From positions 1 to 64,000 of the IMG/VR virus record IMGVR_UViG_3300005613_000045: a stretch of DNA of 64,000 nucleotides. One strand, written 5' to 3'. This DNA comes from a virus. The notes under the pieces are model-generated. The model searched no databases, had not been told where the DNA came from, and saw only the letters and a list, made by a program, of their open reading frames with translations. This document shows, piece after piece, positions 1 to 47,999 of this stretch; the first letter of the stretch is position 1; every line of letters starts with the position of its first letter. Both the position numbers and the translations under genes were made by a program.

Positions 1-82
1 CCCTTACTATAGTACCCTTAAAACGTCGCCAAACGTGTATTATGCAACATATCGAATATTCGATAGTATGAATACGATAATC

Positions 83-192
83 ACATACTCGCATGCACAC
101 ATACTCGCATGCACACATACTCGCATGCACACATACTCGCATGCACACATACTCGCATGCACACATACTCGCATGCACACATACTCGCATGC
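83..192. repeat. Tandem array of about 7 copies of a 16-bp unit (ACATACTCGCATGCAC)
   Basis: Head-to-tail identical units are directly visible at 83-98, 99-114 and onward; the last copy degenerates. The region is non-coding. Confidence 0.9.
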
Positions 193-6482: not shown

Positions 6483-6554
6483 GCTGGTATAACTTAATGG
6501 TAAAGTAACCACCTTGTAAGTGGTGGAGTGTAGGTTCAAGTCCTACTACCAGCT
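6483..6554 (+). tRNA. tRNA-Thr (anticodon UGU)
   Basis: Folded by hand: acceptor GCTGGTA/TACCAGC, D stem ACTT/AAGT, anticodon stem ACCAC/GTGGT with loop CTTGTAA, T arm GTAGG-TTCAAGT-CCTAC. No encoded CCA. Confidence 0.85.
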
Positions 6555-14958: not shown

Positions 14959-16944
14959 ATGCCCTACACAATTAAACCTGTAGACGGAAAATTCTGTATA
15001 TACAAAGAAGATCCTAATGGTCAACCTATGGGAGAACCTTTGCATTGTCATCCTTCGCAAGAAGCGGCAGTCGCACAGATTGCAGCAATTATGGCGAGTG
15101 AAAGATTTCCTCGTAAGAAGGATAAGAAAGATGTTCTGCTTCCAGCAGAGCGAGATCTGTTTGCCGAAATAGATAAATTACCTGCTGTTTCTGCTGAACC
15201 ACCTGTGGTCCCTTCAGTAGAACCTGTGGTTAAAGTTACAATTACTCCTGAGTATCAGCAAGAAATTACAGAGTTGTGTGGTGTCTTTGCTTCTAAGTTA
15301 GGTTATGAAGTAGCAGTGGTAGATAAAGAAGATCAATCTTTTCTTACCATTAATCTTCCTCATAATGGTTTATTGACTACACCAATTAAAAAGAGTGAAG
15401 ATACAGCTAAACTATTTCCTAATGTTCTATTGGAGACAAGCATTCCTGTTACAGAGATGGTAATAGATTACGAACCTGCAAAAAAGTATCTTACTAAAAT
15501 GGTTTCAGAATCTGTGATTAAGGTTACTGTTGATCCTTCAGAAGATACTCGACAAGATTCTGAAGAAGATGAAGAAGGTTCTGAGACTTGCAAGTGTACA
15601 GAATGTGGTTATGAAGCTCCTCATAAAGGCGGAGAACCTTGTGTAAATAAGTATTGTCCTGAATGCGGAGCCAAGATGATGAATGGTAAAGCAGAGGACG
15701 AGAAGGAAAAGGTTACTCCTGTGAAAGAAGAACCTGATGATGAGGTAGTTGAATTGGGCCATCGTAAAACTACTGCAGAAATGTTTGATTCTGTAATTAA
15801 CTTTGTGCGTCAAGTTGTAGGGTTTACTGTCGCTACGAAGAACCGTACTCTAGATAATGATTTGGATAAGATTCTTACTCTCATTAAAGAGATGAAAGAA
15901 ACTAAACCAGTCTTATTTACGGTGAAGAGCGGCGTTGATAAATATAGGTGGGTAGCTATCTCTTCTTCTAACTATCAAGATCGTGATGGAGAAATAGTAC
16001 CTACGAAAGCTTTGGAAAAAGATGTTTTAAATAATCCGACAGACAGAGGAAAACTACTCTTCTGGCACGAGCCTTCCCTAGAGTTAGGTGAGTGTGATTT
16101 TGCTGTTGTCTCTGATGGTTTTCTTGTGGAATCTGGTTACTGGTACAATAATAATCTTGGGGTGGCTGCTCGCAAAGCTGTAGAGCAACGTAGTAGCTAT
16201 TATGGTATGAGTATCGGATTTCAAGCATACGTTCCAGATATTGAAGAAAAACAAGTTGTAGGTGATAAAAATGTAAAATCAGTATATAATACAATTAGAA
16301 CTGTTGAACGTTCTTTGTTACCTGCAAAATGGGCATCTAATTTGTTTACAGCTATACAGACGAAAGGACACGAGATAATGGACCCGACAAAGTTGGCTGA
16401 GTTTGAAGGAATGGTTGGTAAGGAACTAGCTTCTGCTGTACTTGAAAAGATTACAAACAGCAAGAAAGAAGCTGAAGCTGTGGGTGTTGTTTCTAAAGAA
16501 GTGACTGTAGAAAATCCTTCTCCTTTGGAAGTTATGATCAAGTCTCTTGCCGAGGCTGGTTATACTGAGGAGGCCGAAGCTCTTAAAGCTTCAAAGCCTG
16601 CGAAGAAAATGACTCCCGAAGAAGAGGAAGCTGCTAAGGAAGAAGAAGATAAGAAGAAACTTCCTCCTCAGTTTGCTAAGAAAGAGCAAGCTACTCCTGA
16701 CGAGTCAGCAACTCTTGCTACACTTCTTTCTACTTTGATGGAACAGCAAGCTAATCTCACAAAAGAGATTGGTGAACTTAAAGCAAGCCAATCCACGCAG
16801 CAGGGTTTGGTACGCCCCTCACAGACTGTTGATACCGTTGTAAAAGAGGGCACTATCACACCTGTGGTAGAAAAGTCTGCTGGTGATATTGTTCTCGATA
16901 GTATGACTCAATCTATGCTTAATCGTCTTAATGGAGGTGCGTAA
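14959..16944 (+). CDS. Prohead protease (HK97-like S78) fused to a scaffold-like acidic coiled-coil region; contains a zinc ribbon
   Basis: Central WHEP and GMSIGF motifs, proposed by eye as catalytic His/Ser, compatible with an HK97-type S78 prohead protease. Zinc ribbon CKCTECG...CPECG. C-terminal Glu/Lys/Ala-rich region. Sits before the capsid gene. Confidence 0.5.
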   Translation: MPYTIKPVDGKFCIYKEDPNGQPMGEPLHCHPSQEAAVAQIAAIMASERFPRKKDKKDVLLPAERDLFAEIDKLPAVSAEPPVVPSVEPVVKVTITPEYQQEITELCGVFASKLGYEVAVVDKEDQSFLTINLPHNGLLTTPIKKSEDTAKLFPNVLLETSIPVTEMVIDYEPAKKYLTKMVSESVIKVTVDPSEDTRQDSEEDEEGSETCKCTECGYEAPHKGGEPCVNKYCPECGAKMMNGKAEDEKEKVTPVKEEPDDEVVELGHRKTTAEMFDSVINFVRQVVGFTVATKNRTLDNDLDKILTLIKEMKETKPVLFTVKSGVDKYRWVAISSSNYQDRDGEIVPTKALEKDVLNNPTDRGKLLFWHEPSLELGECDFAVVSDGFLVESGYWYNNNLGVAARKAVEQRSSYYGMSIGFQAYVPDIEEKQVVGDKNVKSVYNTIRTVERSLLPAKWASNLFTAIQTKGHEIMDPTKLAEFEGMVGKELASAVLEKITNSKKEAEAVGVVSKEVTVENPSPLEVMIKSLAEAGYTEEAEALKASKPAKKMTPEEEEAAKEEEDKKKLPPQFAKKEQATPDESATLATLLSTLMEQQANLTKEIGELKASQSTQQGLVRPSQTVDTVVKEGTITPVVEKSAGDIVLDSMTQSMLNRLNGGA

Positions 16945-18398
16945 TGGAATCTGAAGTTTTGCTGCAACTAGCTAAAGCTGTTCAGGCTTTAGCTGATTCG
17001 AGTAGCACAAGCAAGAAAAAGTCTTTGACTGGTGTTGCTGACGCTCAGTTGATCTTTGGCCCTGGTGGTTTCTTTAGTAATTTTGGTATTGACAACACTG
17101 TTGTTAATGCTAGTCTTACTCCACGAGGTATGGGCGATCTCATTCCTGCGATGGGTACTAATGTTCTCTATCCTGTATTCCCTTATCTTACAGGGTTTGA
17201 GGAAGATGGTTCGGCAGAGCCTGCTGGTCCGTGTGATGACGCCCCTGGTGGTGTCATTGAAACTTGTCACCAGACTGCGGCCTTTGGTCGTGTAGCTCGT
17301 GGCTCTAAGGAGATGGAAGTCAACGATCTGATGCAGATTCTTAACGGCCATCTGACCACAGATCTGCGTCTGATGGGTGATGTTATCAATCCTGGTCATC
17401 AGCTTATGCCTCAGCAAGGCGTGAATCAGAACGATATGCTGAAGCAGGTTGTTCAGACTCAGATGGTGATTATCGCTATCGCTTTCCAGCGCTGGTTGAC
17501 TCGTCGTTTGTGGACTGGTAATCCTACCAATAATAACGTTGGTGGTGGTTATGCTGAGTTCCCTGGTTTGGATATTCTTATCTCGACCAACAAAGTTGAC
17601 GCCTTTACTGGTGTAGCTTGTCCTGCTCTGTACTCAGATATTAAAGACTTTGCCTTTAATTCTGTGGATAGTGGTACTCCTGACATCCTAAATCATATCA
17701 GTATGATGGAATACTACTTGCGTCATATCGCAGAGCGCACTAACCTTATGCCTGTTGATTGGGTTATCGCTATGCGTCCTGAGTTGTTCTTTGAGCTTAC
17801 GGCTGTGTGGCCTTGCAAGTATCTTACCTATCGTTGTGCTGACGCTGCTGGTGCTGATGTTACTGTTATGAACGATGACACCAATGTGCGTATGCGTGAT
17901 GAGATGCGTAATGGTAACTTCTTGCTGGTTAATGGTCGTAAAATTCCTGTTATCACTGATGATGGTATTTACGAAGATAACAACGAGACTGATGGTCGTT
18001 TGCTCCCTGGTGAATATGCTTCAGACATCTACTTCATTCCTGTGAAGGCTAAGGGTATGCCTGTTCTTTACTGGGAATATTTGGATTACACTGAGGGTGT
18101 TTCACAGGCTAACGCTGTTACTCAAGGCAAGGGTCAGTTCTGGGCTACTGATGGTGGTCGCTACCTGTGGGCTATGCAGAACCAGAACTACTGCTTCAAG
18201 ATTCAGGCTAAGATTCAGCCTCGCGTGATTCTTAAGACTCCGCAATTGGCTGGTCGTATTCAGAATGTGAAGTACAGTCCGTTGCAGCATCTCCGTAGTC
18301 CTTTCGAGGATTCGCCCTACTTTATGAAGGGTGGTAATGAGGAGTACACGAATAGTATTGCTACCCTCTACAGTGATTGGAATCTTCCTGTCACCTAG
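16944..18398 (+). CDS. Major capsid protein (positional; HK97-fold presumed)
   Basis: 484 aa directly after the protease/scaffold; strong GGAGGTG RBS. Codon usage is distinct, rich in CGT/CTG/GGT and suggesting high expression. A strong hairpin lies downstream. Confidence 0.6.
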   Translation: MESEVLLQLAKAVQALADSSSTSKKKSLTGVADAQLIFGPGGFFSNFGIDNTVVNASLTPRGMGDLIPAMGTNVLYPVFPYLTGFEEDGSAEPAGPCDDAPGGVIETCHQTAAFGRVARGSKEMEVNDLMQILNGHLTTDLRLMGDVINPGHQLMPQQGVNQNDMLKQVVQTQMVIIAIAFQRWLTRRLWTGNPTNNNVGGGYAEFPGLDILISTNKVDAFTGVACPALYSDIKDFAFNSVDSGTPDILNHISMMEYYLRHIAERTNLMPVDWVIAMRPELFFELTAVWPCKYLTYRCADAAGADVTVMNDDTNVRMRDEMRNGNFLLVNGRKIPVITDDGIYEDNNETDGRLLPGEYASDIYFIPVKAKGMPVLYWEYLDYTEGVSQANAVTQGKGQFWATDGGRYLWAMQNQNYCFKIQAKIQPRVILKTPQLAGRIQNVKYSPLQHLRSPFEDSPYFMKGGNEEYTNSIATLYSDWNLPVT

Positions 18399-23549: not shown

Positions 23550-25907
23550 ATGAAACTATTCCTTAATCCTCCTGCAAAGAAAAAAGAAAAGCTAGGTAGT
23601 GGTGTCGATGTTGTAGTTTATCAAATGACTAAACATCTACAAGAAATAGCTAATGTATTTCTTGTCCCTACTGTGGATGAAGCAGATATTTTTGCTACAC
23701 ATATTTCTGCTGAAGGATCTCGTCCTGCAGATGTTCTTCATTGTCATGGTCTCTATCCTACACAGGATAGAGAATCTGATAAATGGATGTGGAAAATTAA
23801 CCAGCTTGTTATCGAGTCTGCTAAGAAAGCTGTGTTGGTTACAGTTCCTTCTCCTTGGGTAGCTGAAATTTTTCAACGAGATATGGGATTCACACCAGAA
23901 ATTATTCCTCATGGTTTAGATTTAGCAGAGTGGAAACCTAGAACTCTAGGGCAAACACCTACTATTTTGTGGAATAAGAATAGAAATTCTGATGTCTGTA
24001 ATCCTGATCCTGTTAATGAGATCGCTGCTATAGCTAAGGATCTTTCTTTTGTATCTACCTTTGGTAAAGCTACACCTAACGTGAAAATTGTAGGCTCTAT
24101 GCCTCATCCACAAATGAAAGAGCTTTTATACCAAAGTGGGATTTATCTCGCTACAACAAAAGAAACTTTTGGTATAGGTATTCTTGAAGCTTTGATTTGT
24201 GGACTACCTGTGCTGGCTTGGAATTATGGTAATGCTCCTTACCTCGTACAGCATAAAGTCACAGGATATATTGCACAGCCTGGAGACTACCAAGATTCTG
24301 TTGCAGGCTTGCATTATATCACAGAGAATTGGGAAGAACTTTCCAAGAATGCTCAAGCTTACGCTAAAAGATTTTCTTGGAAAGAGGTTGCACTCCAATA
24401 TTTGCGTGTGTATGAAAAAGCCCTAGAAATTAAAGAAGAAGAAAAAGTAGGGCGTGTCAGCTTTGTTATGCCTTGTCATAATTATGGACAATGGGTAGGA
24501 GAAGCTATCCATTCTGTGCGTAATCAAACACGAGCAAACATTGAATGTATTGTTATTGATGATGGGTCCACAGATAACTCCTATGAAAAAGCTCTCGAAG
24601 CTGCAGGAGATGACCCACGAATTCGTGTGATTAAGCAAGAGAATCAAGGTGTAGCAGCTACAAGAAATCGTGGAGCAATGCTTGCTAAAGGTCCCTTCCT
24701 TTCTTTTTTGGATGCTGATGATAGACTGAGACCAGAATTTGTAGAGCGTCTTTTACCTGAACTTCAGGCAGATCGTTCTCTCGGTATCTCTTATGGTAAA
24801 CTAGCCATCATGGATAAGGATGGTAATACTACAGGACAAGCAAGAGATTGGCCAGAAGATTACTCCGCAGATAAGCAACTACAAAAGCAGAATAGAATTC
24901 CTGCTTGTTGTCTTATGCGCAAAGAAATCTTTTTACGCACAGGTGGGTTCAGACAGCATACAGCACCAACAGAAGACGCCGAACTGTGGGCACGCTTTGC
25001 ACTTATCGGATATAGAGGAAAGCTTTCTACAATTAAACCTGTGTATGATTACAGGTTGCATGGTAATAGTGCTTCTACAAGTTTGCAAGGTAAACCTGCG
25101 CCTGATTGGACAAGCTGGTTGGCTGCAGCTAATGGTGGAAAGGTTCCCTTCGCTGCAGAAGTTTCCAAAAAAGAAGCCTCACACCCTGTGTTAGATTATG
25201 ATCAACCTTTTATTTCTTTTATTATTCCTGTGGGTCCTGATCATGTTAAACATCTGCAGAGAGCTTTGGAATCAGTTGCTGGGCAGACATTACCTACATG
25301 GGAAGCTGTGGTTATTGATGATACAGATGAAGGTGATCTTAAAAAGCAAGGAAGTATTCCTTACGAGATTGCTTATCCTTGGGTAAGATGGGTAAGAAAT
25401 ACAAAGCTGCATAATGTGAGCGCTGCAAGAAACCAGGGGGCGGCTGTAGCTAGAGGAAAGTATCTTTGCTGCTTGGACGCTGACGATTATATCTATCGTG
25501 ACTTCATGGCAGGTATGAAGAACGTCTTGGACTATTGCGAAGGCGATGCACGTATTGTATACTCTGATTGGGTATCAATGCCTAATGGAGAAGTACATAA
25601 AGCGGAAAACTGGAACATTCAAAGACTTAAAGATCACGCTCTTTTCGCAGTTACTTTTGCAGTTCCTCGTTCAGCTTATTTTCAAGTGGGTGGTTTTGAT
25701 GAATCACTCGATCTCTGGGAAGATTGGGATTTTACAATCAAGCTTGCTCTTGCGGGATATGTAGGTATTCGTGTACCGAAACCTTTGTTTGCTTATTGTT
25801 ATGATACAGGAGAGCGGCGAGAGCAGAGCCTAGAAAATAAAGATAGATTGTTTAAAGCAATTCGAGGAGAATACGAAGCAGTTATTCCTGCAGCAAGGCG
25901 TGGTTGA
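23550..25907 (+). CDS. Three-domain glycosyltransferase: GT4/GT1-like (E-x7-E) plus two GT2 domains
   Basis: ETFGIGILEAL is the GT4 EX7E motif. First GT2 domain: VSFVMPCHNYGQW...VIDDGSTDNS...FLDADD. Second GT2 domain: ISFIIPVGPDH...VVIDDTDEG...CLDADD. 785 aa in total. Confidence 0.75.
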   Translation: MKLFLNPPAKKKEKLGSGVDVVVYQMTKHLQEIANVFLVPTVDEADIFATHISAEGSRPADVLHCHGLYPTQDRESDKWMWKINQLVIESAKKAVLVTVPSPWVAEIFQRDMGFTPEIIPHGLDLAEWKPRTLGQTPTILWNKNRNSDVCNPDPVNEIAAIAKDLSFVSTFGKATPNVKIVGSMPHPQMKELLYQSGIYLATTKETFGIGILEALICGLPVLAWNYGNAPYLVQHKVTGYIAQPGDYQDSVAGLHYITENWEELSKNAQAYAKRFSWKEVALQYLRVYEKALEIKEEEKVGRVSFVMPCHNYGQWVGEAIHSVRNQTRANIECIVIDDGSTDNSYEKALEAAGDDPRIRVIKQENQGVAATRNRGAMLAKGPFLSFLDADDRLRPEFVERLLPELQADRSLGISYGKLAIMDKDGNTTGQARDWPEDYSADKQLQKQNRIPACCLMRKEIFLRTGGFRQHTAPTEDAELWARFALIGYRGKLSTIKPVYDYRLHGNSASTSLQGKPAPDWTSWLAAANGGKVPFAAEVSKKEASHPVLDYDQPFISFIIPVGPDHVKHLQRALESVAGQTLPTWEAVVIDDTDEGDLKKQGSIPYEIAYPWVRWVRNTKLHNVSAARNQGAAVARGKYLCCLDADDYIYRDFMAGMKNVLDYCEGDARIVYSDWVSMPNGEVHKAENWNIQRLKDHALFAVTFAVPRSAYFQVGGFDESLDLWEDWDFTIKLALAGYVGIRVPKPLFAYCYDTGERREQSLENKDRLFKAIRGEYEAVIPAARRG

Positions 25908-36724: not shown

Positions 36725-38349
36725 TGGCAGAACTTCGTACCACTCAAGTAATCGCAGAAGTTGAACTTGGACCAGAGCTTCGCACAACACAGGTGGTTGC
36801 AGAAGTTGAGCTTGATTTAAATTTTCGCACTACTTCTATATCTCAATTTCTCCTAGAAATAGATTTTGGTCTGTCCGCAGGAGTATCTAGACTTTCGCAA
36901 TTTATGCTTGAAATAGATTCTGATTTTACTCCTGTCCTACCTGCATCTGTGTCGCAATTTCTGATAGAAATTGATGACACAGGAGTCGATACCACAAAAA
37001 CTCAAGATGATTTTAATTTACAGGCGCTTGTAGTAGACCCTACAACTACGAGTAGCTTCTTTACGCTTGCAGCCAAAGTAAAACCTACTTCTAAACACAG
37101 TGGGGTATTTAATTTACAAGCGTATGTAGAAGAAGCTACCAAAGAATTTTATCTTGCAGCCAAAGTTCGTAAAGAGATTCCTACAGTTACAGAATATTAC
37201 CCAGACTTTGAAGGTCCTTATGAAGTACGTTTGCTGGATCACGATCTCTCATTAGTTCGTGTACTTGAACGATTTGAGAGATTAGATTTTACTCGTGCTG
37301 TGAACGGTAAAAATTATAATGGGTATGGTTCTTTTACTTATACAGCAGCAGCAGATCTAACAAACATAGATGAGTTTACGCTGGATCGCATTATCGAAGT
37401 GCGTAGAATGTCTACCACATATGGTGCTGTACCTGTGTTTCAAGGACTTGTACGCTTTAAGAACATAACCATCAATGAAGACGATCATAAAAAATTATTC
37501 ATCTGTGCTGGTCCAGATCTTAGACACTTTATGAAGCGTCATATTATTATTCCTGATGAAGATCAAGCTTTCTTGTCTTTATCAGAACCTTTTGTTGACA
37601 TAATGCACGATATAGTTTTTCGTAACTGCAGCGTCTATACTGCAGGTACGAGACAAATGCCTGGGATTTTTCCAGGAACTTTTTCTGGTTATGGTATTCC
37701 TCTTAACCTAAACTTTAGATATTCTAAAGTGAGTGATGAGTTAGATAATCTAGCTAATGTTGCTGAAGGTGCTGATTGGGATGTCTTTATCTATAATAGC
37801 GCTCCAGATTATATAACCTTTGAAACTTTCTATCCGTTCAAAGGACGAGACAGGCGCACAAACACTGTGCAAGGTTGGCCAGAAATGGTTTGGTCTCTAG
37901 ACCGTGCCAATATTGTAGGACCTTCTTACACAGAGGATCGTGTGGATGAGGTTACTGTGACGTATGTTGCAGGAGAAGGGGTAGGAGTTGAACGCGCAAT
38001 AGTAGAACGGTATAATGTAGCAGATAGACAAAACGATTCGCCTTGGAATAGAGTAGAAGAATTCATTGATGCTAGTTCTGAAACATCAGAAGCAGTTCTA
38101 AAAGCTCAAGGTGATGCTAATAACGTTGAGCATGGTATGGTTAGAACATTCTCTGTACAAGCAGCGCAAAAAGAACTTTTAAGCTATGGAACGAAATGGA
38201 ATCTTGGGGATATTACCACAGGGGTGTTTGATTTAGGTGGTACTTTTGATATGCGTGTGGTAGAAGTTCGAGAGATTCTTGATCCTGGAGAAGGACATAT
38301 CGCTGTCTATCCTACGTTCTTTATCTATCCTAGACTGGAAGATTATTAA
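36724..38349 (+). CDS. Tail/baseplate protein with short N-terminal peptide repeats
   Basis: N-terminus carries ELRTTQV[IV]AEVEL twice and SQF[LM]LEID three times; 541 aa. Confidence 0.55.
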   Translation: MAELRTTQVIAEVELGPELRTTQVVAEVELDLNFRTTSISQFLLEIDFGLSAGVSRLSQFMLEIDSDFTPVLPASVSQFLIEIDDTGVDTTKTQDDFNLQALVVDPTTTSSFFTLAAKVKPTSKHSGVFNLQAYVEEATKEFYLAAKVRKEIPTVTEYYPDFEGPYEVRLLDHDLSLVRVLERFERLDFTRAVNGKNYNGYGSFTYTAAADLTNIDEFTLDRIIEVRRMSTTYGAVPVFQGLVRFKNITINEDDHKKLFICAGPDLRHFMKRHIIIPDEDQAFLSLSEPFVDIMHDIVFRNCSVYTAGTRQMPGIFPGTFSGYGIPLNLNFRYSKVSDELDNLANVAEGADWDVFIYNSAPDYITFETFYPFKGRDRRTNTVQGWPEMVWSLDRANIVGPSYTEDRVDEVTVTYVAGEGVGVERAIVERYNVADRQNDSPWNRVEEFIDASSETSEAVLKAQGDANNVEHGMVRTFSVQAAQKELLSYGTKWNLGDITTGVFDLGGTFDMRVVEVREILDPGEGHIAVYPTFFIYPRLEDY

Positions 38350-40838
38350 TGCCCAATAACGATCCTATGATTCGGCAAACAAAAAGAACAAGCACAATCC
38401 AACGAGGACTTGTTACTAAAGAAATTCCTTCAGTCAACCTGTGGAATGCTTCTGCTATAACTTTATCTCCTGGAGATGTTGTTATTCTTTCTGACACAGA
38501 TGAAAAATCTGTAGTAACTACAACAACTGCAGGTGCTGCGAATCCTTTGATCGTACTTATTGGTGCTGCTCCTGGTGAGCTTGTTAAATGTATTGTCCCT
38601 GGTTCTGGTGCTGCTGCCGCCTTGTGTGGTGGTGTAGCTATTGCTCCTGGGGATACTATTATTACGTCAACTTCCGCAACGTACGGTAAAAAATTAGAGA
38701 CTGAAGATGCTTCAGGATCTTTAGGTACTGCGATTTCAGCAAAAGCTGCAGGTGTTACTTCTCTAGTATCTGTTTTGCTACATGATAGCGTAGCACTTTA
38801 TAGTTCTGGTGGTGGGGGTAGTCCTGACCCCTCCACGATTGACCACAATTTGCTGTTAAATACACATAACCTTACAACAGATATAGATCATAACTTAATT
38901 ACAAATACGCATAATCTTACCACTGACATAGATCATAACTTAATTACAAATACACATAACCTTACAACAGATATAGATCATAACTTAATTACAAATACGC
39001 ATAATCTTACAACAGATATAGATCATAACTTAATTACAAATACGCATAATCTTACCACTGACATAGATCACAATCAACTAACAAACTATGAGGCAGATGA
39101 ACATGTTCCTCTTGATGATGCTGCAACAGATGATGCACATGTCTGGTCTGCAGAGCAAATTCAAGATGCTATTGATTTAACAGAACACAATACGCTAGGT
39201 GGTTTGCAGGGCGGTACAGCAGGAGAATACTTCCATCTTGCAGAAGATCAATATAATATACTTACTGATGGAGACGCAGTTGTAGATATTGCTGATGATC
39301 AACATGTTCATCAGCTTATACCTAATTCCATGACAATAAATGCCGTTAGTAGTATAAACGAACCAGCACTGTTAAATGTTCATCATTCTGGTGTAGGAAA
39401 TCCTACAGCTATTTTTGGGTCGCTCAGTACTTTATACACTGGTCCAGGAACTTTATTTATTGACAATAATAAAATAGGTATAGGTTATTATAATGATGCG
39501 GATGATGCTTCATTTTATTTAAATAATTCTGGTTATTTAGGGGGAATAAGTCGTTATCGTAACTTTATTATAGGAGATGGTAAAAACTCTCCGTTATCTT
39601 CTTGGAGTGGTTCTGGAGCTACTTTAGACCATGTAATTGAAATGTCAATTACTCCTCCAGCGATTGATCAAGTTCCTCTTACAATACAAGGACTAGCAGG
39701 ACAAACTGCAAACTTGCAGGAGTGGACTGACAGTACGCCAACAGCCCTAGCAAAAGTAGGGCCAGATGGTACCCTTACTACCCCAGCCATTGCTGGTGTG
39801 GGCAGTATAGGAAACGCAGGTCCTATAAGTATTCAGGCTGTGGGAGCCCCAGGGACAGAGGTAGTCTTCAATGAGCTCGGGGGAGACATAGATTTCAGAG
39901 TCGAGGGAGATACGGTATCAAATCTATTTTCTGTGGATGCGAGCACAGATAGGATTGGCATCGGTGTATCTACTCCTCAAGCGTTGCTTGATATAACTAA
40001 TACAGATACAGATCTTGTGGGTCTAGCCATCAATAGTAATTCTACAACACAACCTTATCTTTATATGAATGGACCTGCACCAGAAATTAGGTGGCGAGAT
40101 AGTGCCGCATCAGGAACTCCTCTTGCAAGGATGCTGGGGGATAGTGGTAATATGGTTTTTGAGTCTGATTCATCAGACGAGATAGCCGGTAGCTACATGG
40201 CTTTTACTATTGATGGCGCAGAAAAGATGAGGCTAGATGTCAATGGCAGAGTCGGTATTGGCACGGACGCGCCGAATGCCGATCTGGAGGTCATCGACTC
40301 AGGAGCGTCGGGCTTAAACGTTACCAAGTACACCACGACGGGCCAGGGCGCTTATAACGTCACTAGAACGGCAAGAGGCACAGAAGCGTCGCCAACCGCA
40401 TTGCAGAATGTTGACGCGCTTGGTTACTACTTGTTCAAGGGACATGACGGCGTCGGGTTTTACACCGGAGCCTATTTGCAAGCTGCAGCGTCTCAAACAT
40501 GGCAGGCTGGAAAGCATGGTACACAATACGAGTTCTTTGTCACGCGCAATGACACAACAGCTAATGTTAGTAGAATGCGTATCACAAATGATGGTCTCGT
40601 AAGTATAGGCAACTCGCTAACACCCGTTGCACAATTCCATGTCGATCAGGCAAACAATATAGCGGCTATTCCTGTGCTGATTCTCGATCAAGCAGATTTG
40701 AGCGAGGAGATGATTGAATTTGATACCACAGTAGGCGCTGGGTATCCCGTAGATACAGCAGCTATAGGGACTTATTACGGCAAAGTTCGTGTAAGTGTTA
40801 ATGGAACATTCAAGTACATACCATTATATAATTCGTAG
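38349..40838 (+). CDS. Tail fiber protein with 15-aa tandem repeats and a compositionally distinct C-terminal segment
   Basis: 829 aa; Gly/Ala-rich N-terminal part; (IDHNLITNTHNLTTD)x5; many G/S/T stretches; ends just before the holin-like genes. Confidence 0.65.
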   Translation: MPNNDPMIRQTKRTSTIQRGLVTKEIPSVNLWNASAITLSPGDVVILSDTDEKSVVTTTTAGAANPLIVLIGAAPGELVKCIVPGSGAAAALCGGVAIAPGDTIITSTSATYGKKLETEDASGSLGTAISAKAAGVTSLVSVLLHDSVALYSSGGGGSPDPSTIDHNLLLNTHNLTTDIDHNLITNTHNLTTDIDHNLITNTHNLTTDIDHNLITNTHNLTTDIDHNLITNTHNLTTDIDHNQLTNYEADEHVPLDDAATDDAHVWSAEQIQDAIDLTEHNTLGGLQGGTAGEYFHLAEDQYNILTDGDAVVDIADDQHVHQLIPNSMTINAVSSINEPALLNVHHSGVGNPTAIFGSLSTLYTGPGTLFIDNNKIGIGYYNDADDASFYLNNSGYLGGISRYRNFIIGDGKNSPLSSWSGSGATLDHVIEMSITPPAIDQVPLTIQGLAGQTANLQEWTDSTPTALAKVGPDGTLTTPAIAGVGSIGNAGPISIQAVGAPGTEVVFNELGGDIDFRVEGDTVSNLFSVDASTDRIGIGVSTPQALLDITNTDTDLVGLAINSNSTTQPYLYMNGPAPEIRWRDSAASGTPLARMLGDSGNMVFESDSSDEIAGSYMAFTIDGAEKMRLDVNGRVGIGTDAPNADLEVIDSGASGLNVTKYTTTGQGAYNVTRTARGTEASPTALQNVDALGYYLFKGHDGVGFYTGAYLQAAASQTWQAGKHGTQYEFFVTRNDTTANVSRMRITNDGLVSIGNSLTPVAQFHVDQANNIAAIPVLILDQADLSEEMIEFDTTVGAGYPVDTAAIGTYYGKVRVSVNGTFKYIPLYNS
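38838..39077 (+). repeat. 45-bp tandem repeat, about 5.3 copies, inside the tail fiber gene
   Basis: Units alternate between two near-synonymous DNA variants: ...aatacgcataatcttaccactgac versus ...aatacacataaccttacaacagat. Confidence 0.9.
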
Positions 40839-40846
40839 GAGGATTC

Positions 40847-41101
40847 ATGGATTTCATTCCTAGTGTACGACCTGTTCCTGATCATATCGGTGACATTAGT
40901 TTTATCATTACTAATTATTTAGATAACACAGAAACTCCTGATAGTGTGCAATATGAAGTGCAAGTTTTGCAAGCAGATGGTTCAATCTATAATATAGAAC
41001 AAGGTGATTTAATTCCTTATCTAACACAAGAACAGATTGTAATGCTTGTACAATTTGCAGATTCTATGCGGACATTAGCACAAGGATTAATTCCAGAATA
41101 A
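40847..41101 (+). CDS. Hypothetical protein
   Basis: 84-aa ORF with a GGAGGA RBS. Confidence 0.5.
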   Translation: MDFIPSVRPVPDHIGDISFIITNYLDNTETPDSVQYEVQVLQADGSIYNIEQGDLIPYLTQEQIVMLVQFADSMRTLAQGLIPE

Positions 41102-41119
41102 TTTTAGGAGGGCCGACCA

Positions 41120-41341
41120 ATGGATAAAATTGAATTGACTGAAGCAGAAGCAAAAATTGTTTTTACTCTGTATGAAACTAGGCAACAGGTAGTGGCAGAA
41201 CAGGATAGTATAATCTCTGCTTTGATAAAATTACTAGCAAAAAATTATGGGTTTTCTGAAGACGTTAATCTAAGTATTACTCAAACAGAGAATGGTAAAC
41301 TAGTATTAGAAAGTAAAGCTGATAAACAAAATGAAAAATAA
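41120..41341 (+). CDS. Hypothetical protein
   Basis: 73-aa ORF preceded by the AATTTTAGGAGGGCC motif. Confidence 0.5.
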   Translation: MDKIELTEAEAKIVFTLYETRQQVVAEQDSIISALIKLLAKNYGFSEDVNLSITQTENGKLVLESKADKQNEK

Positions 41342-44412: not shown

Positions 44413-44496
44413 TGAGGTGGGAGGGATTTGAACCCTCATGGCGTTTCCGCCAGCGGCTTTTAAGGCCGCCATGTCTACCAATTCCATCACCACCCC
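44413..44496 (-). tRNA. tRNA-Leu (anticodon UAA), type II with a long variable arm
   Basis: Reverse complement folds as acceptor GGGGTGG/CCACCTC (one G-U pair), anticodon stem GCGGC/GCCGC with loop CTTAAAA, 15-nt variable arm, and T arm GAGGG-TTCAAAT-CCCTC. Confidence 0.85.
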
Positions 44497-44780: not shown

Positions 44781-47700
44781 TTAATCCTCTTCTACAATAA
44801 GAGAACCCCAACGATAACCACGTTCTGCTTCTACAGGAAAAGGAATCGTATCACCATAAAGTTCTGCCGCTGTGCCTTCCATACACTTGCTAAGTTCGTG
44901 TACTGCGTCCTCTGCATCTTCTTCAGGAACACAGGCTGTGATACTATCATGGACTGTCATGCGCACTGAGAGACCTAGTTTATCTAAGGCGATGATAGAC
45001 GCAAGTGTAGCATCACTAGCAGAGCTTTGGGGAATCATATTGATTGCCTGTCTGAAAATTTCTGATACTCGATAGCGATCATTCTTTACATAAACAAGCT
45101 CAGGAAATCTTCTCTTTCTACCAAGCAGAGATTCAACATACCCTTGTTCGAGTACAAGCTGCTTTACTTTCTCGTTATATTCTACCACCTTGGGCATTTT
45201 TGAAAAGAAAGCTGAAGCAATCTTGTGGACAATTTCAGGATCTACACCATGTGTACCGTCACGCTGTAGTTTATCCTCAGATGCTCCATAAAGCAAAGCA
45301 AAGTTAAAAGTTTTTGCAGAAGAGCGATTGGCTTTTGTATAGTCATCTCCCCAACCATCTCGTGCAGTTTCTCCGTGCAAGTCTCGTCCTTCTCGATAGC
45401 AATTAATCAGATAAGGATCTTGAGATAGTAGAGCAATTGTTCTATATTCGATTTGACTATTACAAGTAAATACACCGCAACTTAAAGCAAAATTATGTTG
45501 ATCATCTACAGTAATAGCTCGCATAGGTTGTAGACCCACAGGTTGAATATCTATAATTACATGATTTTTACCGCCCCTTCGTGCTGTGTCATAACATTCT
45601 CTAGAACAATATTTTTTAGTATTTCCTTTTGTAACATAACACTCTTTACCACAGATGGGACAAACTACGAAAGTTCCAGAACGTTTTCCGTAATTAGGAT
45701 TATTTTTTCCAACATACGAACGACGATTTTTAATTCCTTCTCTAAGATTGTTTAATCTTAATGTGTGATCTTGTTCAGCGTAATTTTGTTTACCGTGTTC
45801 AGACCAGTGTTTTTTAGCATTCACATATGTAAGATTATCTGGCAGATTATTTTGTCTATTTCCGTCTTTATGGTGTACATGCGTATTTTTATTACGTTTT
45901 CCAAACAAAGTTTCAGCTACAAGTATATGTTCTTTTATATAATCAGTTGCATGAGTAGTATATAAATGAACATAACCATTACGAGGATTAACGTACCTAT
46001 TAAAAGGAAGAAGACGATCTCCTATGGTCAGATTTTCTGTTGTTCGTTCTTCGATAGGATGATAGCGCCGACCTTTTCCTGTTTTTATTAACCACTTGTG
46101 ATCTTTAGAAGCAATAATAGATTCTCCATTATCTAACGTTATACGAAAACTCTCTAGCATTCCTACATTTACTTCTTTTGTTACCAAACCTGCGCACACT
46201 TTATGATCATCTACAGAATAAACACGCTCTCCAACATGAATATCTTTTAAAGGTTTGGCTCCTTCAAAAGTTTCTACAAGTGTTTCTGGATGAAGACAAA
46301 AATCGGCCTCTACAAAGACAGATCCTAAATCAGCAATAAACAAATTACGAATATCTGTTTTTGCCTCTTTATTCCTGCTAGGCTGGTTTTGTAGATTTGG
46401 CGTTGAGGATGACAGCCTTCCTGTGACTGTACCCGCAAGGTTAAAGCTTGTGTGTACTCTACCATCAGCAAGCATAGAGTTTTGTAGTCCTGTGACGTAT
46501 CGAGATGAGATAGTATAAGCTTCTCGATAATCCAGTAACATACGCACAAACTCGTGCTGATTTTCTAGCATAGATAGAACAGTCTTTGCATTTGTAGAAC
46601 GTCCATCTATCTCAGGCAAACCTAACTCATCAAAAAGAATATGCGATACTTGTTGTGGTGATCGTGGGTTAAATTCATGACCACAACATTGTTCCATTTG
46701 TTTATAAGCATCAAGAGCTTTTGATTCATACTTTGGAATAAGCGTTTGAAGAAGTTGCTGATCTAATAAAATACCCTTCGCTTCAGCATTAGAAAGCGCC
46801 AACACTCCAGGCATAAGAAGATTCTTATATATCCAAACCAACTTCTCTTGTGGTTTAAGCATCTTGTGCAGTTCCCACGTCATTACTCGCTGCCAATAAC
46901 CGTCATTTGCTGTATAAGTATGTAGCATTTGTGTAGGCATAGCAGAGTAATCAACATCTTTTCCTGTAAAAAACTCTTTCACAGGAGTATCCCAATCAGG
47001 AGCGCGAAACATAGCAGCACAAATTTCTTTAGCTCCATGCGTACCTTGTCGCTCATCAAGCAAGTAATGAGCAAGAAGCGTATCATACTTGAAATCAAGC
47101 GTAACACCCAATTGCAGACGAATAAAGTTGCGATCAAACTTTACGTTATGCCCAGACCAAGCTACTTGTGGACTTGCTTTTTTCAAAGCTTCTGCAAAAC
47201 CCTGTGAATAGATCACATGTTCTGGAATGAGATAAACTAACTCATCTTCACTTGGAGCCATTACAAGCAGAATAATTTTACCTGATACAGGATCAAGAGA
47301 ATTTGTTTCAATATCCAGAACACAGAAAGAATTTTGTTGTGCCTTACGCAATACCATATCATAATCTTCTGTGAGCACATACTTAACTTCTTCAGGATTC
47401 GGAGGACGCACATCAAAAATATCTGGATTCAGAATAGCATGTACATATTTTAGATCAGCCGTAATATCTGCAAGCAAACGATTGTTTTTCATAACAGCGC
47501 CTGGATGCACAGTAGGAATAACCTCTACTCGATAACTATCTCCATCTTTTACAGGGATGTCGATAGTTTTTCTGATGCCTCTGCGCTTAGTGATTCCAGG
47601 ACCCTTACCCAGCAGATTTTTTGTAGCCAGATTACCTAGCGTAAGCACAAGCTTTGGTTTAAGGGAAGCAATTTCATCCAGCAATCTGTCTTTACATAAT

Positions 47701-47999
47701 CCTGCTGCTTCTTCTTTTTGTTTTTCATCCTGACCAAAACACAAACAAGTATTGGTGAACCAATAGGAAGACAGATCTTCTAGGTGCAGAGTATCCCGCA
47801 GAATTTTAAAGCTATCAGCAGAGAATATTTTTCGATTGACAACCTCCTGTGTTGTTGGTCCTTCTCCAACGATCACAAGATCTGCGTGCTGCTGATTGTC
47901 TAGCTTACCCTGACCTCTAAGACCGATACGATTTTTAAAGGGACAATTTTCACAAGCTGCGAGAGGGTGTTTACGACTACTCATTTTGAATCTCTTCAA
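44781..47999 (-). CDS. Family A DNA polymerase with an N-terminal family-4 UDG-like domain, a 3'-5' exonuclease, and an intein in motif A
   Basis: UDG4-like: Cys cluster CENCP...CLC...C, GEGPT and HPGAV. Exonuclease I: VLDIETNSLD. Polymerase: NLQNQP; motif A split as VFVEADF|...|SQIEYRTIALLS; motif B RSSAKTFNFALLYG; motif C VHDSI. Confidence 0.9.
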   Translation of the reverse strand: MKRFKMSSRKHPLAACENCPFKNRIGLRGQGKLDNQQHADLVIVGEGPTTQEVVNRKIFSADSFKILRDTLHLEDLSSYWFTNTCLCFGQDEKQKEEAAGLCKDRLLDEIASLKPKLVLTLGNLATKNLLGKGPGITKRRGIRKTIDIPVKDGDSYRVEVIPTVHPGAVMKNNRLLADITADLKYVHAILNPDIFDVRPPNPEEVKYVLTEDYDMVLRKAQQNSFCVLDIETNSLDPVSGKIILLVMAPSEDELVYLIPEHVIYSQGFAEALKKASPQVAWSGHNVKFDRNFIRLQLGVTLDFKYDTLLAHYLLDERQGTHGAKEICAAMFRAPDWDTPVKEFFTGKDVDYSAMPTQMLHTYTANDGYWQRVMTWELHKMLKPQEKLVWIYKNLLMPGVLALSNAEAKGILLDQQLLQTLIPKYESKALDAYKQMEQCCGHEFNPRSPQQVSHILFDELGLPEIDGRSTNAKTVLSMLENQHEFVRMLLDYREAYTISSRYVTGLQNSMLADGRVHTSFNLAGTVTGRLSSSTPNLQNQPSRNKEAKTDIRNLFIADLGSVFVEADFCLHPETLVETFEGAKPLKDIHVGERVYSVDDHKVCAGLVTKEVNVGMLESFRITLDNGESIIASKDHKWLIKTGKGRRYHPIEERTTENLTIGDRLLPFNRYVNPRNGYVHLYTTHATDYIKEHILVAETLFGKRNKNTHVHHKDGNRQNNLPDNLTYVNAKKHWSEHGKQNYAEQDHTLRLNNLREGIKNRRSYVGKNNPNYGKRSGTFVVCPICGKECYVTKGNTKKYCSRECYDTARRGGKNHVIIDIQPVGLQPMRAITVDDQHNFALSCGVFTCNSQIEYRTIALLSQDPYLINCYREGRDLHGETARDGWGDDYTKANRSSAKTFNFALLYGASEDKLQRDGTHGVDPEIVHKIASAFFSKMPKVVEYNEKVKQLVLEQGYVESLLGRKRRFPELVYVKNDRYRVSEIFRQAINMIPQSSASDATLASIIALDKLGLSVRMTVHDSITACVPEEDAEDAVHELSKCMEGTAAELYGDTIPFPVEAERGYRWGSLIVEED
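45459..46298 (-). mobile_element. Intein (280 aa) with an HNH endonuclease domain, inserted in Pol A motif A
   Basis: Begins with Cys (CLHPETLV, block A-like) and has a block-B-like SKDHKWL. HNH motif is HVHHKDGNRQNN...H with a zinc ribbon CPICG...C..C. Ends ...VFTCN and is followed by Ser. The flanks reconstitute ADFSQIEYR, like ADYSQIELR. Confidence 0.75.

What the first reader, a model, noticed from the sequence alone, without database searches (positions are those of the whole stretch)
40245..40520. Abrupt GC-rich patch (about 57% GC versus about 40% background) inside the tail fiber C-terminal region
The segment ggcacggacgcgccgaatgccgatctggaggtc...gcaagctgcagcgtctcaaacatggcaggctgg has clearly different base composition and codon choice from the rest of the gene and genome. 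Only in this patch do both antisense frames open into spurious ORFs. This is the signature of a horizontally acquired module, probably part of the receptor-binding domain, so it marks a candidate host-range determinant and recombination junction.
Basis: seen in the sequence. Interest (0 to 1): 0.55.

Follow-up and report, generated by a model that had tools for sequence, protein, structure and literature searches.

The report
Foreign-codon cassette in phage tail fibre
A roughly 255-base stretch near the end of a phage tail-fibre gene uses the codon dialect of a much more GC-rich genome, which is the ordinary signature of a fibre segment swapped in from another virus and marks a plausible, untested, host-recognition cassette.

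Summary
Window 40245-40520 is 56.2% GC against 39.0% overall, and it is the highest-GC 276-nt stretch of the whole 64 kb. The excess sits at synonymous sites: GC3 is 0.59-0.64 against 0.25 in the rest of the gene. CpG observed/expected is 1.27 against 0.66, and NCG codons are 13% against 1.8%. It is the worst codon-adapted stretch of 13,427 tested (z = -6.9).

The maximum-likelihood island is nt 40224-40478 (codons 626-710). It lies in the 829-aa tail-fibre gene 38349-40838 of an uncultured siphovirus. It is the strongest block of a mosaic C-terminal half.

At protein level the patch is the proximal "capping loop" plus most of the body of the last beta-helix module. [quoted passage not shown] In homologues this cassette is hypervariable (22% identity, 91-169 aa), while the final 64 aa are 74% identical. 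Homologues take the GC3 of their own genomes, so the composition is not intrinsic to the domain.

RNA structure, an antisense gene, a DGR, expression-linked codon bias and an assembly chimera were each tested and are not supported.

Most likely this is a recombinational import from a lineage of at least ~54-58% GC. No donor or breakpoint-bearing relative was found. It is an ordinary example of tail-fibre mosaicism.

The parts
36724..38349 (+). Upstream minor tail protein gene (Sipho_Gp37-like). It places the fibre gene in the distal-tail module.
   Evidence: Pfam PF14594 E = 2e-29. phrog_538 minor tail protein. Same synteny in L012, where a Sipho_Gp37 gene is followed by the homologue P0043.
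38349..40838 (+). Tail-fibre gene, 829 aa, which contains the finding.
   Evidence: ORF. phrog_9942 tail fiber protein, aa 653-774. tblastn hits to annotated tail fibres of Synechococcus and Roseobacter phages. PDB relatives are trimeric fibres.
38364..38990 (+). N-terminal anchor region. It is the only part shared with the fibres of the nearest phage relatives.
   Evidence: tblastn: L011 matches aa 6-214 at 38% and L010 matches aa 7-173 at 34%. Those loci were found through the Gp37-like protein at 46-49% identity. GC3 about 0.19, native-like.
38858..39070 (+). 45-nt tandem repeat, 4.7 copies, encoding HNLTTDIDHNLITNT units (shaft repeat).
   Evidence: TRF, 91% matches. Translation. Homologous repeats in P0001, P0003 and P0007.
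39711..39962 (+). First raised-GC3 block (codons 455-538, GC3 0.43). The main compositional break of the gene is at its 5' edge.
   Evidence: Segmentation. Fisher p = 6e-6 against codons 1-454 and p = 0.0015 against codons 539-593. It overlaps the widely conserved motif at aa 486-552.
39951..39989 (+). Capping-loop motif 1 (RIGIGVSTPQALL, aa 535-547).
   Evidence: Regex and translation. Motif definition in PMC10769870.
39963..40127 (+). Native-like low-GC3 block (codons 539-593, GC3 0.16) separating the two raised blocks.
   Evidence: Segmentation. Fisher p = 4e-8 against the island.
40224..40478 (+). The GC3 and codon-usage island (codons 626-710, GC3 0.64).
40248..40286 (+). Capping-loop motif 2 (RVGIGTDAPNADL, aa 634-646). 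It is the proximal cap of the last beta-helix module. Alignments of P0035, P0043 and P0051 begin here.
   Evidence: BLAST starts at aa 632/633. Aligned to the Bd3182 and Bd2133 cap sequences.
40293..40595 (+). Hypervariable cassette (aa 649-749): the body of an ARGT..SPTA-type beta-helix repeat module. The island covers its first ~62 codons.
   Evidence: 22% mean identity to 7 homologues, with homologue lengths of 91-169 aa. Aligned to Bd2439 (8ol4) and Bd2133 (8ond) beta-helix domains. 7,187 representative proteins carry the module.
40596..40637 (+). Capping-loop motif 3 (LVSIGNSLTPVAQF, aa 750-763), the distal cap.
40644..40835 (+). Conserved C-terminal 64-aa domain (aa 766-829), with intermediate GC3 of about 0.35.
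   Evidence: 70-77% identical to 7 homologues from contigs of 41-63% GC. Many further hits at 55-79%. No Pfam family.

Best explanation
The patch is a piece of foreign coding sequence inside the distal part of a siphovirus tail-fibre gene.

The fibre has four parts in order: a lineage-specific N-terminal anchor, a repeat shaft, beta-helix modules delimited by conserved "capping-loop" motifs (VGIGTxxPxxxL), and a conserved 64-aa C-terminal domain. The patch covers the proximal capping loop and about the first two thirds of the last beta-helix module.

Its codon usage (C/G-ending codons, CpG-rich, many NCG codons) is that of a genome of roughly 54-58% GC or more, whereas the phage is 39% GC. The most likely history (inferred) is recombination with a homologous fibre gene from a GC-richer phage or prophage, or conceivably a cellular fibre gene. 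The crossovers would lie in or near conserved module sequence. The event would be recent enough that the synonymous sites have not yet drifted to the phage's own bias.

The neighbouring blocks of intermediate GC3 (39711-39962 and 40479-40835), separated by a native-like block, indicate that the C-terminal half is a patchwork of several such events.

In homologues this cassette is the hypervariable part. In the solved Bd3182, T5 and P22-type structures the surface between the two caps forms a ligand cleft. Replacing it is therefore expected (inferred, not shown) to alter what the fibre binds.
For: Shown:
- The patch is an extreme outlier, and the signal is synonymous-site specific.
- The block boundaries are sharp, with 0.16 next to 0.64.
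- The composition is not intrinsic to the domain. Patch-equivalents in six homologue genes track their own contig GC: GC3 of 0.27 at 41% GC up to 0.77 at 63% GC.
- The regression GC3 = 2.06*GC - 0.55 (r = 0.99) puts GC3 of 0.57-0.64 at 54-58% genomic GC.
- The same sequence and both junctions occur in a separate metagenome contig, L001, at 99.4% identity and differing mainly by homopolymer indels.
- The protein is mosaic. Phage relatives share only the N-terminal anchor. P0035, P0043 and P0051 align from aa 632/633 onward.
- Segment identities to homologues: cassette 22%, C-terminal domain 74%.
- There is sequence homology to solved beta-helix fibre domains: 8ond E = 3e-24 with a profile and 2.6e-5 with the single sequence, plus 8ol4, 8ojn and 8oml. 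Foldseek gives the same hits plus T5 4uw7/4uw8.
- Capping loops and the cleft are described in PMC10769870.
- There is precedent for swapping adhesin segments by recombination in or near conserved motifs: PMC3157838, citing Tetart et al. 1998.
- Some homologues (L013, L015) show their own GC3 steps at the same cassette, in both directions.
Against: - No donor was found. The closest relative of the cassette is 48% identical among 1.84 billion representatives and 41-44% in the 5.8-billion-protein set.
- There are no DNA matches in viral contigs.
- No relative is similar on one side of a junction and different on the other.
- The junctions are located only to about +/-15 codons.
- The 3' edge falls inside the module, not at a capping loop.
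- The identity of the patch to homologues does not correlate with their GC.
- The receptor-binding role is by analogy only. Bd2133, the best sequence match, lacks the cleft.
- The structural model is a monomer of moderate confidence (mean pLDDT 65).
Confidence: 0.7

Rival explanations
1. A single large import, not a small patch. The whole C-terminal half (from nt 39711) came in at once from a GC-rich donor. Later back-recombination with low-GC relatives, or uneven amelioration, left 40224-40478 as the least-eroded remnant.
For: The strongest single breakpoint of the gene is at codon 454/455, with GC3 0.19 before it and 0.41 after. All three raised blocks lie downstream of it. The phage relatives L010 and L011 share only the N-terminal anchor.
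Against: A 55-codon block with fully native GC3 (0.16) sits between the raised blocks (p = 4e-8 and 0.0015). Amelioration does not produce sharp steps like that. The blocks also differ in CpG observed/expected (0.38, 1.27, 1.0), which suggests different sources.
Confidence: 0.15
2. The sequence is native, and its composition is maintained by local selection or mutation bias. Candidates are codon choice tuned for expression or co-translational folding of the beta-helix, or a nucleic-acid-level signal.
For: One other gene (16944-18398) also has raised GC3 (0.43), so non-HGT codon heterogeneity does exist in this genome.
Against: That gene's bias is of a different kind. It has T at 68% of 4-fold sites, CpG observed/expected 0.67 and NCG 2.3%. 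The patch has C+G at 66% of 4-fold sites, CpG 1.27 and NCG 12.9%. Homologous modules in low-GC contigs show no such rise. RNA folding energy equals that of shuffles (z = 0.13). There is no Rfam match. The two phage tRNAs read A-ending codons.
Confidence: 0.07
3. Metagenomic assembly chimera: reads of a GC-richer related phage were joined into this contig across conserved fibre motifs.
For: The window looks like an uncultured or metagenomic genome, with no match in GenBank phages. Conserved motifs flank the region.
Against: L001, a separately assembled contig from JGI sample 3300005346, spans 39540-41244 with both junctions at 99.4% identity, and its differences are sequencing-type indels. The reading frame and the domain alignment to homologues run continuously through both edges.
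Confidence: 0.05
4. A hidden overlapping or antisense gene, or a diversity-generating retroelement (DGR) target, shapes the sequence.
For: Alternative-frame open stretches of 150-300 nt overlap the patch.
Against: Such open stretches follow from the rarity of stop codons in GC-rich DNA. Longer ones exist elsewhere in the gene. They have no PHROG homology. The sense-frame protein has solved homologues. No second copy of the patch (a template repeat) exists anywhere in the 64 kb at word size 7.
Confidence: 0.02

Closest known systems
Bdellovibrio bacteriovorus MAT (mosaic adhesive trimeric) fibres: Bd2133, Bd2439, Bd3182, Bd1334 (PDB 8OND, 8OL4, 8OJN/8ONC, 8OML; Caulton et al. 2024, PMC10769870)
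   Same: There is direct sequence homology of fibre aa 617-783 to the beta-helix domains, and these are the top Foldseek hits. The capping-loop motifs delimit the modules in the same way. These proteins are themselves described as chimeric, with exchanged C-termini.
   Different: Those are cellular surface fibres of a predatory bacterium. This one is a phage tail fibre encoded next to a Sipho_Gp37-like gene. It has no S74 chaperone domain (no PF13884 hit). Its C-terminal 64-aa domain is unrelated to the solved MAT tips. Identity is low (about 20-30%).
[quoted passage not shown]
   Same: Structural match of the predicted model (Foldseek E about 2e-4, probability 1.0). It has a similar beta-helical distal fibre with a surface cleft, as noted in PMC10769870.
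   Different: Only fold-level similarity (13-14% identity). T5 pb1 ends in a cleaved S74 intramolecular chaperone, which is absent here.
T-even gp37/gp38 adhesin mosaicism: hypervariable segments between conserved motifs, swapped by recombination (Trojet et al. 2011, PMC3157838; Tetart et al. 1998, cited therein)
   Same: Same logic: variable specificity segments are flanked by conserved motifs, and exchanges occur within or near the conserved motifs.
   Different: Unrelated protein folds and motifs (glycine-rich motifs rather than capping loops). Here the exchange is inferred from codon usage alone, with no recombinant pairs available.
Horizontal transfer of tail-fibre gene segments among unrelated phages (P2/Mu/P1/lambda-type fibres; Haggard-Ljungquist et al. 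1992 and Sandmeier 1994, cited from my own knowledge, not checked here)
   Same: C-terminal fibre parts move between otherwise unrelated phages, giving mosaic genes with local compositional anomalies.
   Different: Different fibre families. In those cases donors and recipients are known, and here the donor is unsampled.
Diversity-generating retroelement variable regions in phage fibre C-termini (the Bordetella BPP-1 Mtd paradigm, from my own knowledge)
   Same: A localised anomalous stretch near the 3' end of a receptor-binding gene.
   Different: There is no template repeat in the window. The anomaly is a codon-usage shift, not adenine-specific variation.

Membership tests
Capping-loop beta-helix fibre module (MAT / T5 pb1-like distal fibre) | Sequence homology to solved beta-helix fibre domains | tested here: met
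   Profile A2 against PDB: 8ond E = 3.4e-24, 8oml 3e-15, 8ojn 6e-10, 8ol4 2e-8. Single sequence: 8ond 2.6e-5, 8ol4 1.3e-4, with residue-level alignments over aa 617-783.
Capping-loop beta-helix fibre module (MAT / T5 pb1-like distal fibre) | Capping-loop motifs (VG.G..P...L) at both ends of the module | tested here: met
   Three motifs, at aa 535-547, 634-646 and 750-763. They align to the Bd3182 and Bd2133 loops. The motif is described in PMC10769870.
Capping-loop beta-helix fibre module (MAT / T5 pb1-like distal fibre) | Intertwined trimeric beta-helix fold | tested here: inconclusive
   The monomer AF2 model is all-beta in aa 617-766, with pLDDT 76-94 in parts and mean 65. Foldseek probability is 1.0 but TM is only 0.2-0.3. 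A trimer could not be modelled.
S74-type fibres (C-terminal Peptidase_S74 intramolecular chaperone) | PF13884 domain after the last beta-helix module | tested here: not met
   No Pfam hit at E <= 0.1 on the full protein. The C-terminus is instead a conserved 64-aa domain without a Pfam family. It is therefore analogous to the NS74 type.
Horizontally acquired segment (compositional island) | Composition deviates significantly from the host genome | tested here: met
   Maximum of all windows for GC (z = 4.2) and for GC3. Codon-usage z = -6.9.
Horizontally acquired segment (compositional island) | The deviation lies at synonymous sites or dinucleotides, not in amino-acid content | tested here: met
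   GC3 0.59-0.64 against 0.25, while GC1 and GC2 are nearly unchanged. CpG observed/expected 1.27 against 0.66.
Horizontally acquired segment (compositional island) | The composition is not an intrinsic property of the protein family | tested here: met
   In six homologue genes the equivalent segment follows the GC of its own contig.
Horizontally acquired segment (compositional island) | An identifiable donor lineage, or phylogenetic incongruence across the junctions | tested here: inconclusive
   No relative above 48% identity for the cassette, and none bridging a junction, in any of the protein, viral, metagenome or genome collections.
Diversity-generating retroelement target | A template repeat nearly identical to the variable region | tested here: not met
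   No second copy in the 64 kb (repeat finder; blastn at word size 7).
Diversity-generating retroelement target | A nearby reverse transcriptase | not tested
   The ORFs of the window were not all scanned. None of the 20 proteins scanned is a reverse transcriptase.

The most novel reading that the evidence does not exclude
The cassette was captured across a large host gap. The source would be a fibre gene of a phage, or a cellular MAT-like fibre, living in bacteria of roughly 55-60% GC, and the recipient is a 39% GC siphovirus. On this reading the ARGT..SPTA beta-helix repeat modules (7,187 representative proteins, unannotated in Pfam) form a common pool. The capping-loop motifs would act as universal recombination linkers between phages of unrelated hosts and cellular adhesins.
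Probability: 0.15. Interest if true: 0.55.

Novelty: new member of a known kind. Interest (0 to 1): 0.3.

Why it matters
Tail-fibre mosaicism is the textbook route by which phages change hosts, so finding another example is not surprising. This case is useful in three ways:
- It is an unusually clean one. A roughly 20-point GC gap is confined to about 85 codons.
- It pins a likely exchange onto a structurally defined unit: the cassette between the two capping loops of a beta-helix module that has solved relatives.
- It shows that this module family is very large, yet lacks a Pfam model.

For anyone engineering or predicting the host range of this phage group, aa 634-749 is the first segment to swap or mutate. 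The conserved last 64 aa are probably a structural or assembly element rather than the specificity determinant.

Tried and rejected
- Megablast of the fibre gene against GenBank phages: no match.
- Exact-protein look-up of the fibre in the assembly index: not on record.
- First homologue search with the full protein: swamped by the HNLTTDIDHN repeat and the aa 500-550 motif, so it was uninformative for the patch.
- Search for breakpoint-bearing relatives, none found: viral contigs with the C-terminal module and with the Gp37-like neighbour, metagenome contigs, aa 272-632 against 5.8 billion proteins, and exact 24-38-mers in viral contigs.
- Genome scan with alignment A2 failed because it had no conserved stretch. 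With A3 it gave only 4 uncultured MAG contigs and no host clue.
- DGR hypothesis: no template repeat.
- RNA-element hypothesis: folding z = 0.13, and there is no Rfam hit in the patch. The only sub-threshold hit lies elsewhere, at 41277-41329, E = 0.24.
- Antisense or overlapping-gene hypothesis: no homology, and the open frames are not unique to the patch.
- Expression-linked codon bias: rejected by comparison with gene 16944-18398.
- Phage-tRNA compensation: the two tRNAs read A-ending Thr and Leu codons, which is irrelevant to the patch.
- Correlating patch amino-acid identity with homologue GC to guess the donor: no trend.
- Nearest cultured phage through the DNA polymerase: only about 26% identity, so the phage group and host remain unknown.
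Full report
**Observation.**
It is 56.2% GC in a window that averages 39.0%. Among all 63,725 overlapping 276-nt windows it is the maximum (mean 0.390, sd 0.041, z = 4.2). It lies in frame in ORF 38349-40838 (829 aa), and codon 633 begins at 40245.

Splitting by codon position shows that the excess is synonymous. GC1/GC2/GC3 is 0.565/0.533/0.587 in the patch and 0.526/0.439/0.252 in the rest of the gene. Over 60 ORFs of the window, the patch holds the highest GC3 of 13,067 in-frame 92-codon windows (mean 0.262, sd 0.075). It also holds the lowest score of 13,427 windows when codons are scored by the genome's own synonymous preferences (z = -6.9). CpG observed/expected is 1.27 against 0.66. NCG codons are 12.9% against 1.75%. 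Codons such as GGC, GTC, ACC, ACG and GCG, each 7-10% of their family in the genome, dominate in the patch.

**Extent.**
Likelihood segmentation of GC3 along the gene puts the main break at codon 454/455 (nt 39711), with GC3 0.19 upstream and 0.41 downstream. A finer partition gives these blocks:

| Codons | nt | GC3 |
|---|---|---|
| 455-538 | 39711-39962 | 0.43 |
| 539-593 | 39963-40127 | 0.16 |
| 626-710 (594-710 at a lower penalty) | 40224-40478 | 0.64 |
| 711-829 | 40479-40835 | 0.35 |

The island is significant even inside the C-terminal half (0 of 300 permutations). By Fisher tests it differs from the rest of the fibre (p = 2e-12), from the adjoining low block (4e-8) and from the downstream block (1e-4). 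However, the patch is the strongest block of a compositional mosaic rather than a lone anomaly.

Stop-free antisense stretches of 150-449 nt occur elsewhere in the gene, the longest at 38349-38797.

**What the gene is.**
- The upstream ORF is a Sipho_Gp37-like minor tail protein (PF14594, E = 2e-29).
- The fibre ORF hits PHROG 9942 "tail fiber protein" and annotated fibres of marine phages at 25-40% identity.
- The window also carries a terminase, a tape-measure protein, a family A DNA polymerase, a primase and a helicase.
- There is no close cultured relative; the polymerase is about 26% identical to the best hit.
- The nearest phage relatives found, L010 and L011, are 46-49% identical in the Gp37-like protein. 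They share only fibre aa 6-214, and L010 also shares the last ~70 aa. The fibre is therefore a mosaic at protein level.

**What the patch encodes.**
A profile of the C-terminal 330 aa and its homologues matches the crystal structures of Bdellovibrio bacteriovorus MAT fibres: 8OND Bd2133 at E = 3e-24, plus 8OML, 8OJN and 8OL4. The single sequence aligns aa 617-783 to Bd2133 chain residues 6-171 and aa 650-759 to Bd2439.

A ColabFold model is all-beta here, with mean pLDDT 65 and 76-94 over much of aa 620-770. [quoted passage not shown]

Caulton et al. (PMC10769870) describe these regions as intertwined trimeric beta-helix modules whose edges carry "capping loops" with a conserved V-G-...-P-x-x-x-L motif. 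In Bd3182 the two loops bound a 30 x 15 Angstrom cleft comparable to the O-antigen site of the P22 tailspike. Bd2133 lacks the cleft.

The fibre studied here has three such motifs, at aa 535-547, 634-646 and 750-763. The patch is thus the proximal cap plus most of the body of the last module.

An exhaustive HMMER search shows that this ~120-aa unit (signature ARGT..SPTA ... W....GT...F.T ... RMRI..G.VGIGT) occurs in 7,187 representative proteins, often as 5-24 tandem copies. The best identity is only 48%. The preceding module of the same fibre (aa 535-633) is a different subtype, and only the cap is similar.

**Variable cassette between conserved flanks.**
In an alignment with seven homologues that cover the region, the segments compare as follows:

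| Segment (aa) | Mean identity to homologues | Homologue lengths |
|---|---|---|
| Proximal cap, 633-648 | 48% | 9-17 aa |
| Cassette, 649-749 | 22% | 91-169 aa |
| C-terminal domain, 766-829 | 74% (range 70-77%) | 64-65 aa |

Alignments of three short fibres (P0035, P0043, P0051) start exactly at aa 632/633. One of them, P0043, is encoded directly after a Sipho_Gp37 gene.

**Is the composition intrinsic to the domain?**
No. In six homologue genes the patch-equivalent segment has the GC3 of its own genome:

| Locus | Patch-equivalent GC3 | Contig GC |
|---|---|---|
| L004 | 0.27 | 41% |
| L015 | 0.46 | 42% |
| L013 | 0.32 | 48% |
| L014 | 0.52 | 48.5% |
| L012 | 0.51 | 57% |
| L002 | 0.77 | 63% |

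L013 and L015 show modest steps of their own at the cassette, in opposite directions (p = 0.025 and 0.048). That fits recurrent exchange in this family. A regression of gene GC3 on contig GC (r = 0.99, seven points) places GC3 of 0.57-0.64 at about 54-58% genomic GC. This is a rough lower bound for the source.

**Rivals.**
- *Assembly chimera.* A separately assembled JGI contig (L001, sample 3300005346) covers 39540-41244 at 99.4% identity and includes both junctions. Its differences are mostly single-base homopolymer indels. The domain alignments also run through the edges without interruption.
- *RNA element.* The folding energy equals that of dinucleotide shuffles (z = 0.13), and no Rfam family matches.
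- *Overlapping gene.* The alternative-frame ORFs have no PHROG homology and are expected in GC-rich DNA.
- *DGR.* No second copy of the patch exists in the 64 kb.
- *Expression-linked bias.* The only other GC3-rich gene (16944-18398) prefers T at 68% of 4-fold sites, with genome-like CpG (0.67) and 2.3% NCG codons. That is qualitatively unlike the patch, which has C+G at 66% of 4-fold sites. The two phage tRNAs, Thr-UGU and Leu-UAA, do not serve GC-ending codons.
- *Single large import with uneven amelioration.* This remains possible, but it is hard to reconcile with the fully native 55-codon block between the raised blocks.

**What could not be shown.**
No donor and no relative bridging a junction was found. 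The searches covered 5.8 billion proteins, 1.84 billion representatives, viral contigs, metagenome contigs and species-representative genomes. The case for acquisition is therefore compositional plus architectural, not phylogenetic. The junctions are known only to about +/-15 codons. The 3' edge, near codon 710, lies inside the module rather than at a capping loop. A role in receptor binding is inferred from position, variability and homology.

**Verdict.**
The most likely explanation (about 0.7) is a recombinational import of a partial beta-helix cassette from a GC-richer fibre gene into a mosaic tail fibre. This is a well-known kind of event (PMC3157838 for T-even adhesins, PMC10769870 for MAT fibres). 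Here it happens to be unusually sharp and to fall on a structurally interpretable unit. Interest is modest, and the novelty class is a new member of a known kind.

Noticed in passing
window 82-192: Perfect 16-nt tandem repeat CACATACTCGCATGCA, 6.9 copies, in an apparently non-coding stretch near the start of the window. It might be an origin, terminus or regulatory array.
   Followed up: no
window 38858-39070 (fibre aa ~164-240): 45-nt tandem repeat encoding HNLTTDIDHNLITNT about 5 times, with a histidine every 7 or 8 residues. The same repeat occurs at 72-85% identity in unrelated metagenomic fibre proteins (P0001, P0003, P0007). The regular His spacing is reminiscent of metal-binding HxH repeats in other fibres; that comparison is from my own knowledge and was not tested.
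   Followed up: partly
window 16944-18398: Second codon-usage outlier of the window (GC3 0.43, local peaks at 0.55), but of a different kind: T at 68% of 4-fold sites, A-ending codons only 7%, and genome-like CpG. It has no Pfam or PHROG hit. Its position after the terminase and portal-like genes suggests a highly expressed head protein.
   Followed up: partly
window 39711-39962: A separate raised-GC3 block (0.43, CpG observed/expected only 0.38) in the same fibre. It overlaps a motif (aa 486-552) that is 55-66% identical in many unrelated fibre-like proteins. It is probably another exchanged piece from a different source.
   Followed up: partly
window 40644-40835: The last 64 aa of the fibre are 70-77% identical in fibres from contigs ranging from 41% to 63% GC, and they have no Pfam family. 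This is unusually conserved for a fibre tip, which suggests an assembly or trimerisation element rather than the specificity determinant.
   Followed up: partly
window 44781-47999 (- strand): The family A DNA polymerase gene carries an HNH-endonuclease-like segment at about aa 636-808, between polymerase-homologous regions (PHROG hits). It could be an inserted homing-endonuclease or intein-like element.
   Followed up: no
L013:65-1027 and L015:3750-4922: Homologous fibre genes in other contigs have their own GC3 steps at the equivalent cassette: L013 0.32 against 0.48 and L015 0.46 against 0.32 (p = 0.025 and 0.048). This hints that compositional mosaicism at this cassette is recurrent.
   Followed up: partly
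window 6483-6554 (+) and 44413-44496 (-): Two phage-encoded tRNAs, Thr(UGU) and Leu(UAA). Both match the phage's AT-rich codon preference.
   Followed up: no
window 23550-25907 and 27378-28856: Within the structural gene block there is a 785-aa ORF with glycosyltransferase-like PHROG hits and a 492-aa ORF with weak BNR/Asp-box (sialidase-like repeat) Pfam hits. Both are unusual passengers among tail genes.
   Followed up: no
P0123-P0272 (hits): The ARGT..SPTA beta-helix repeat module is very widespread: 7,187 representative proteins, up to 24 copies per protein, in proteins up to 4,757 aa. Pfam-A (2025 copy) nevertheless gave no hit on this fibre, so the module appears to lack a curated family.
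   Followed up: partly
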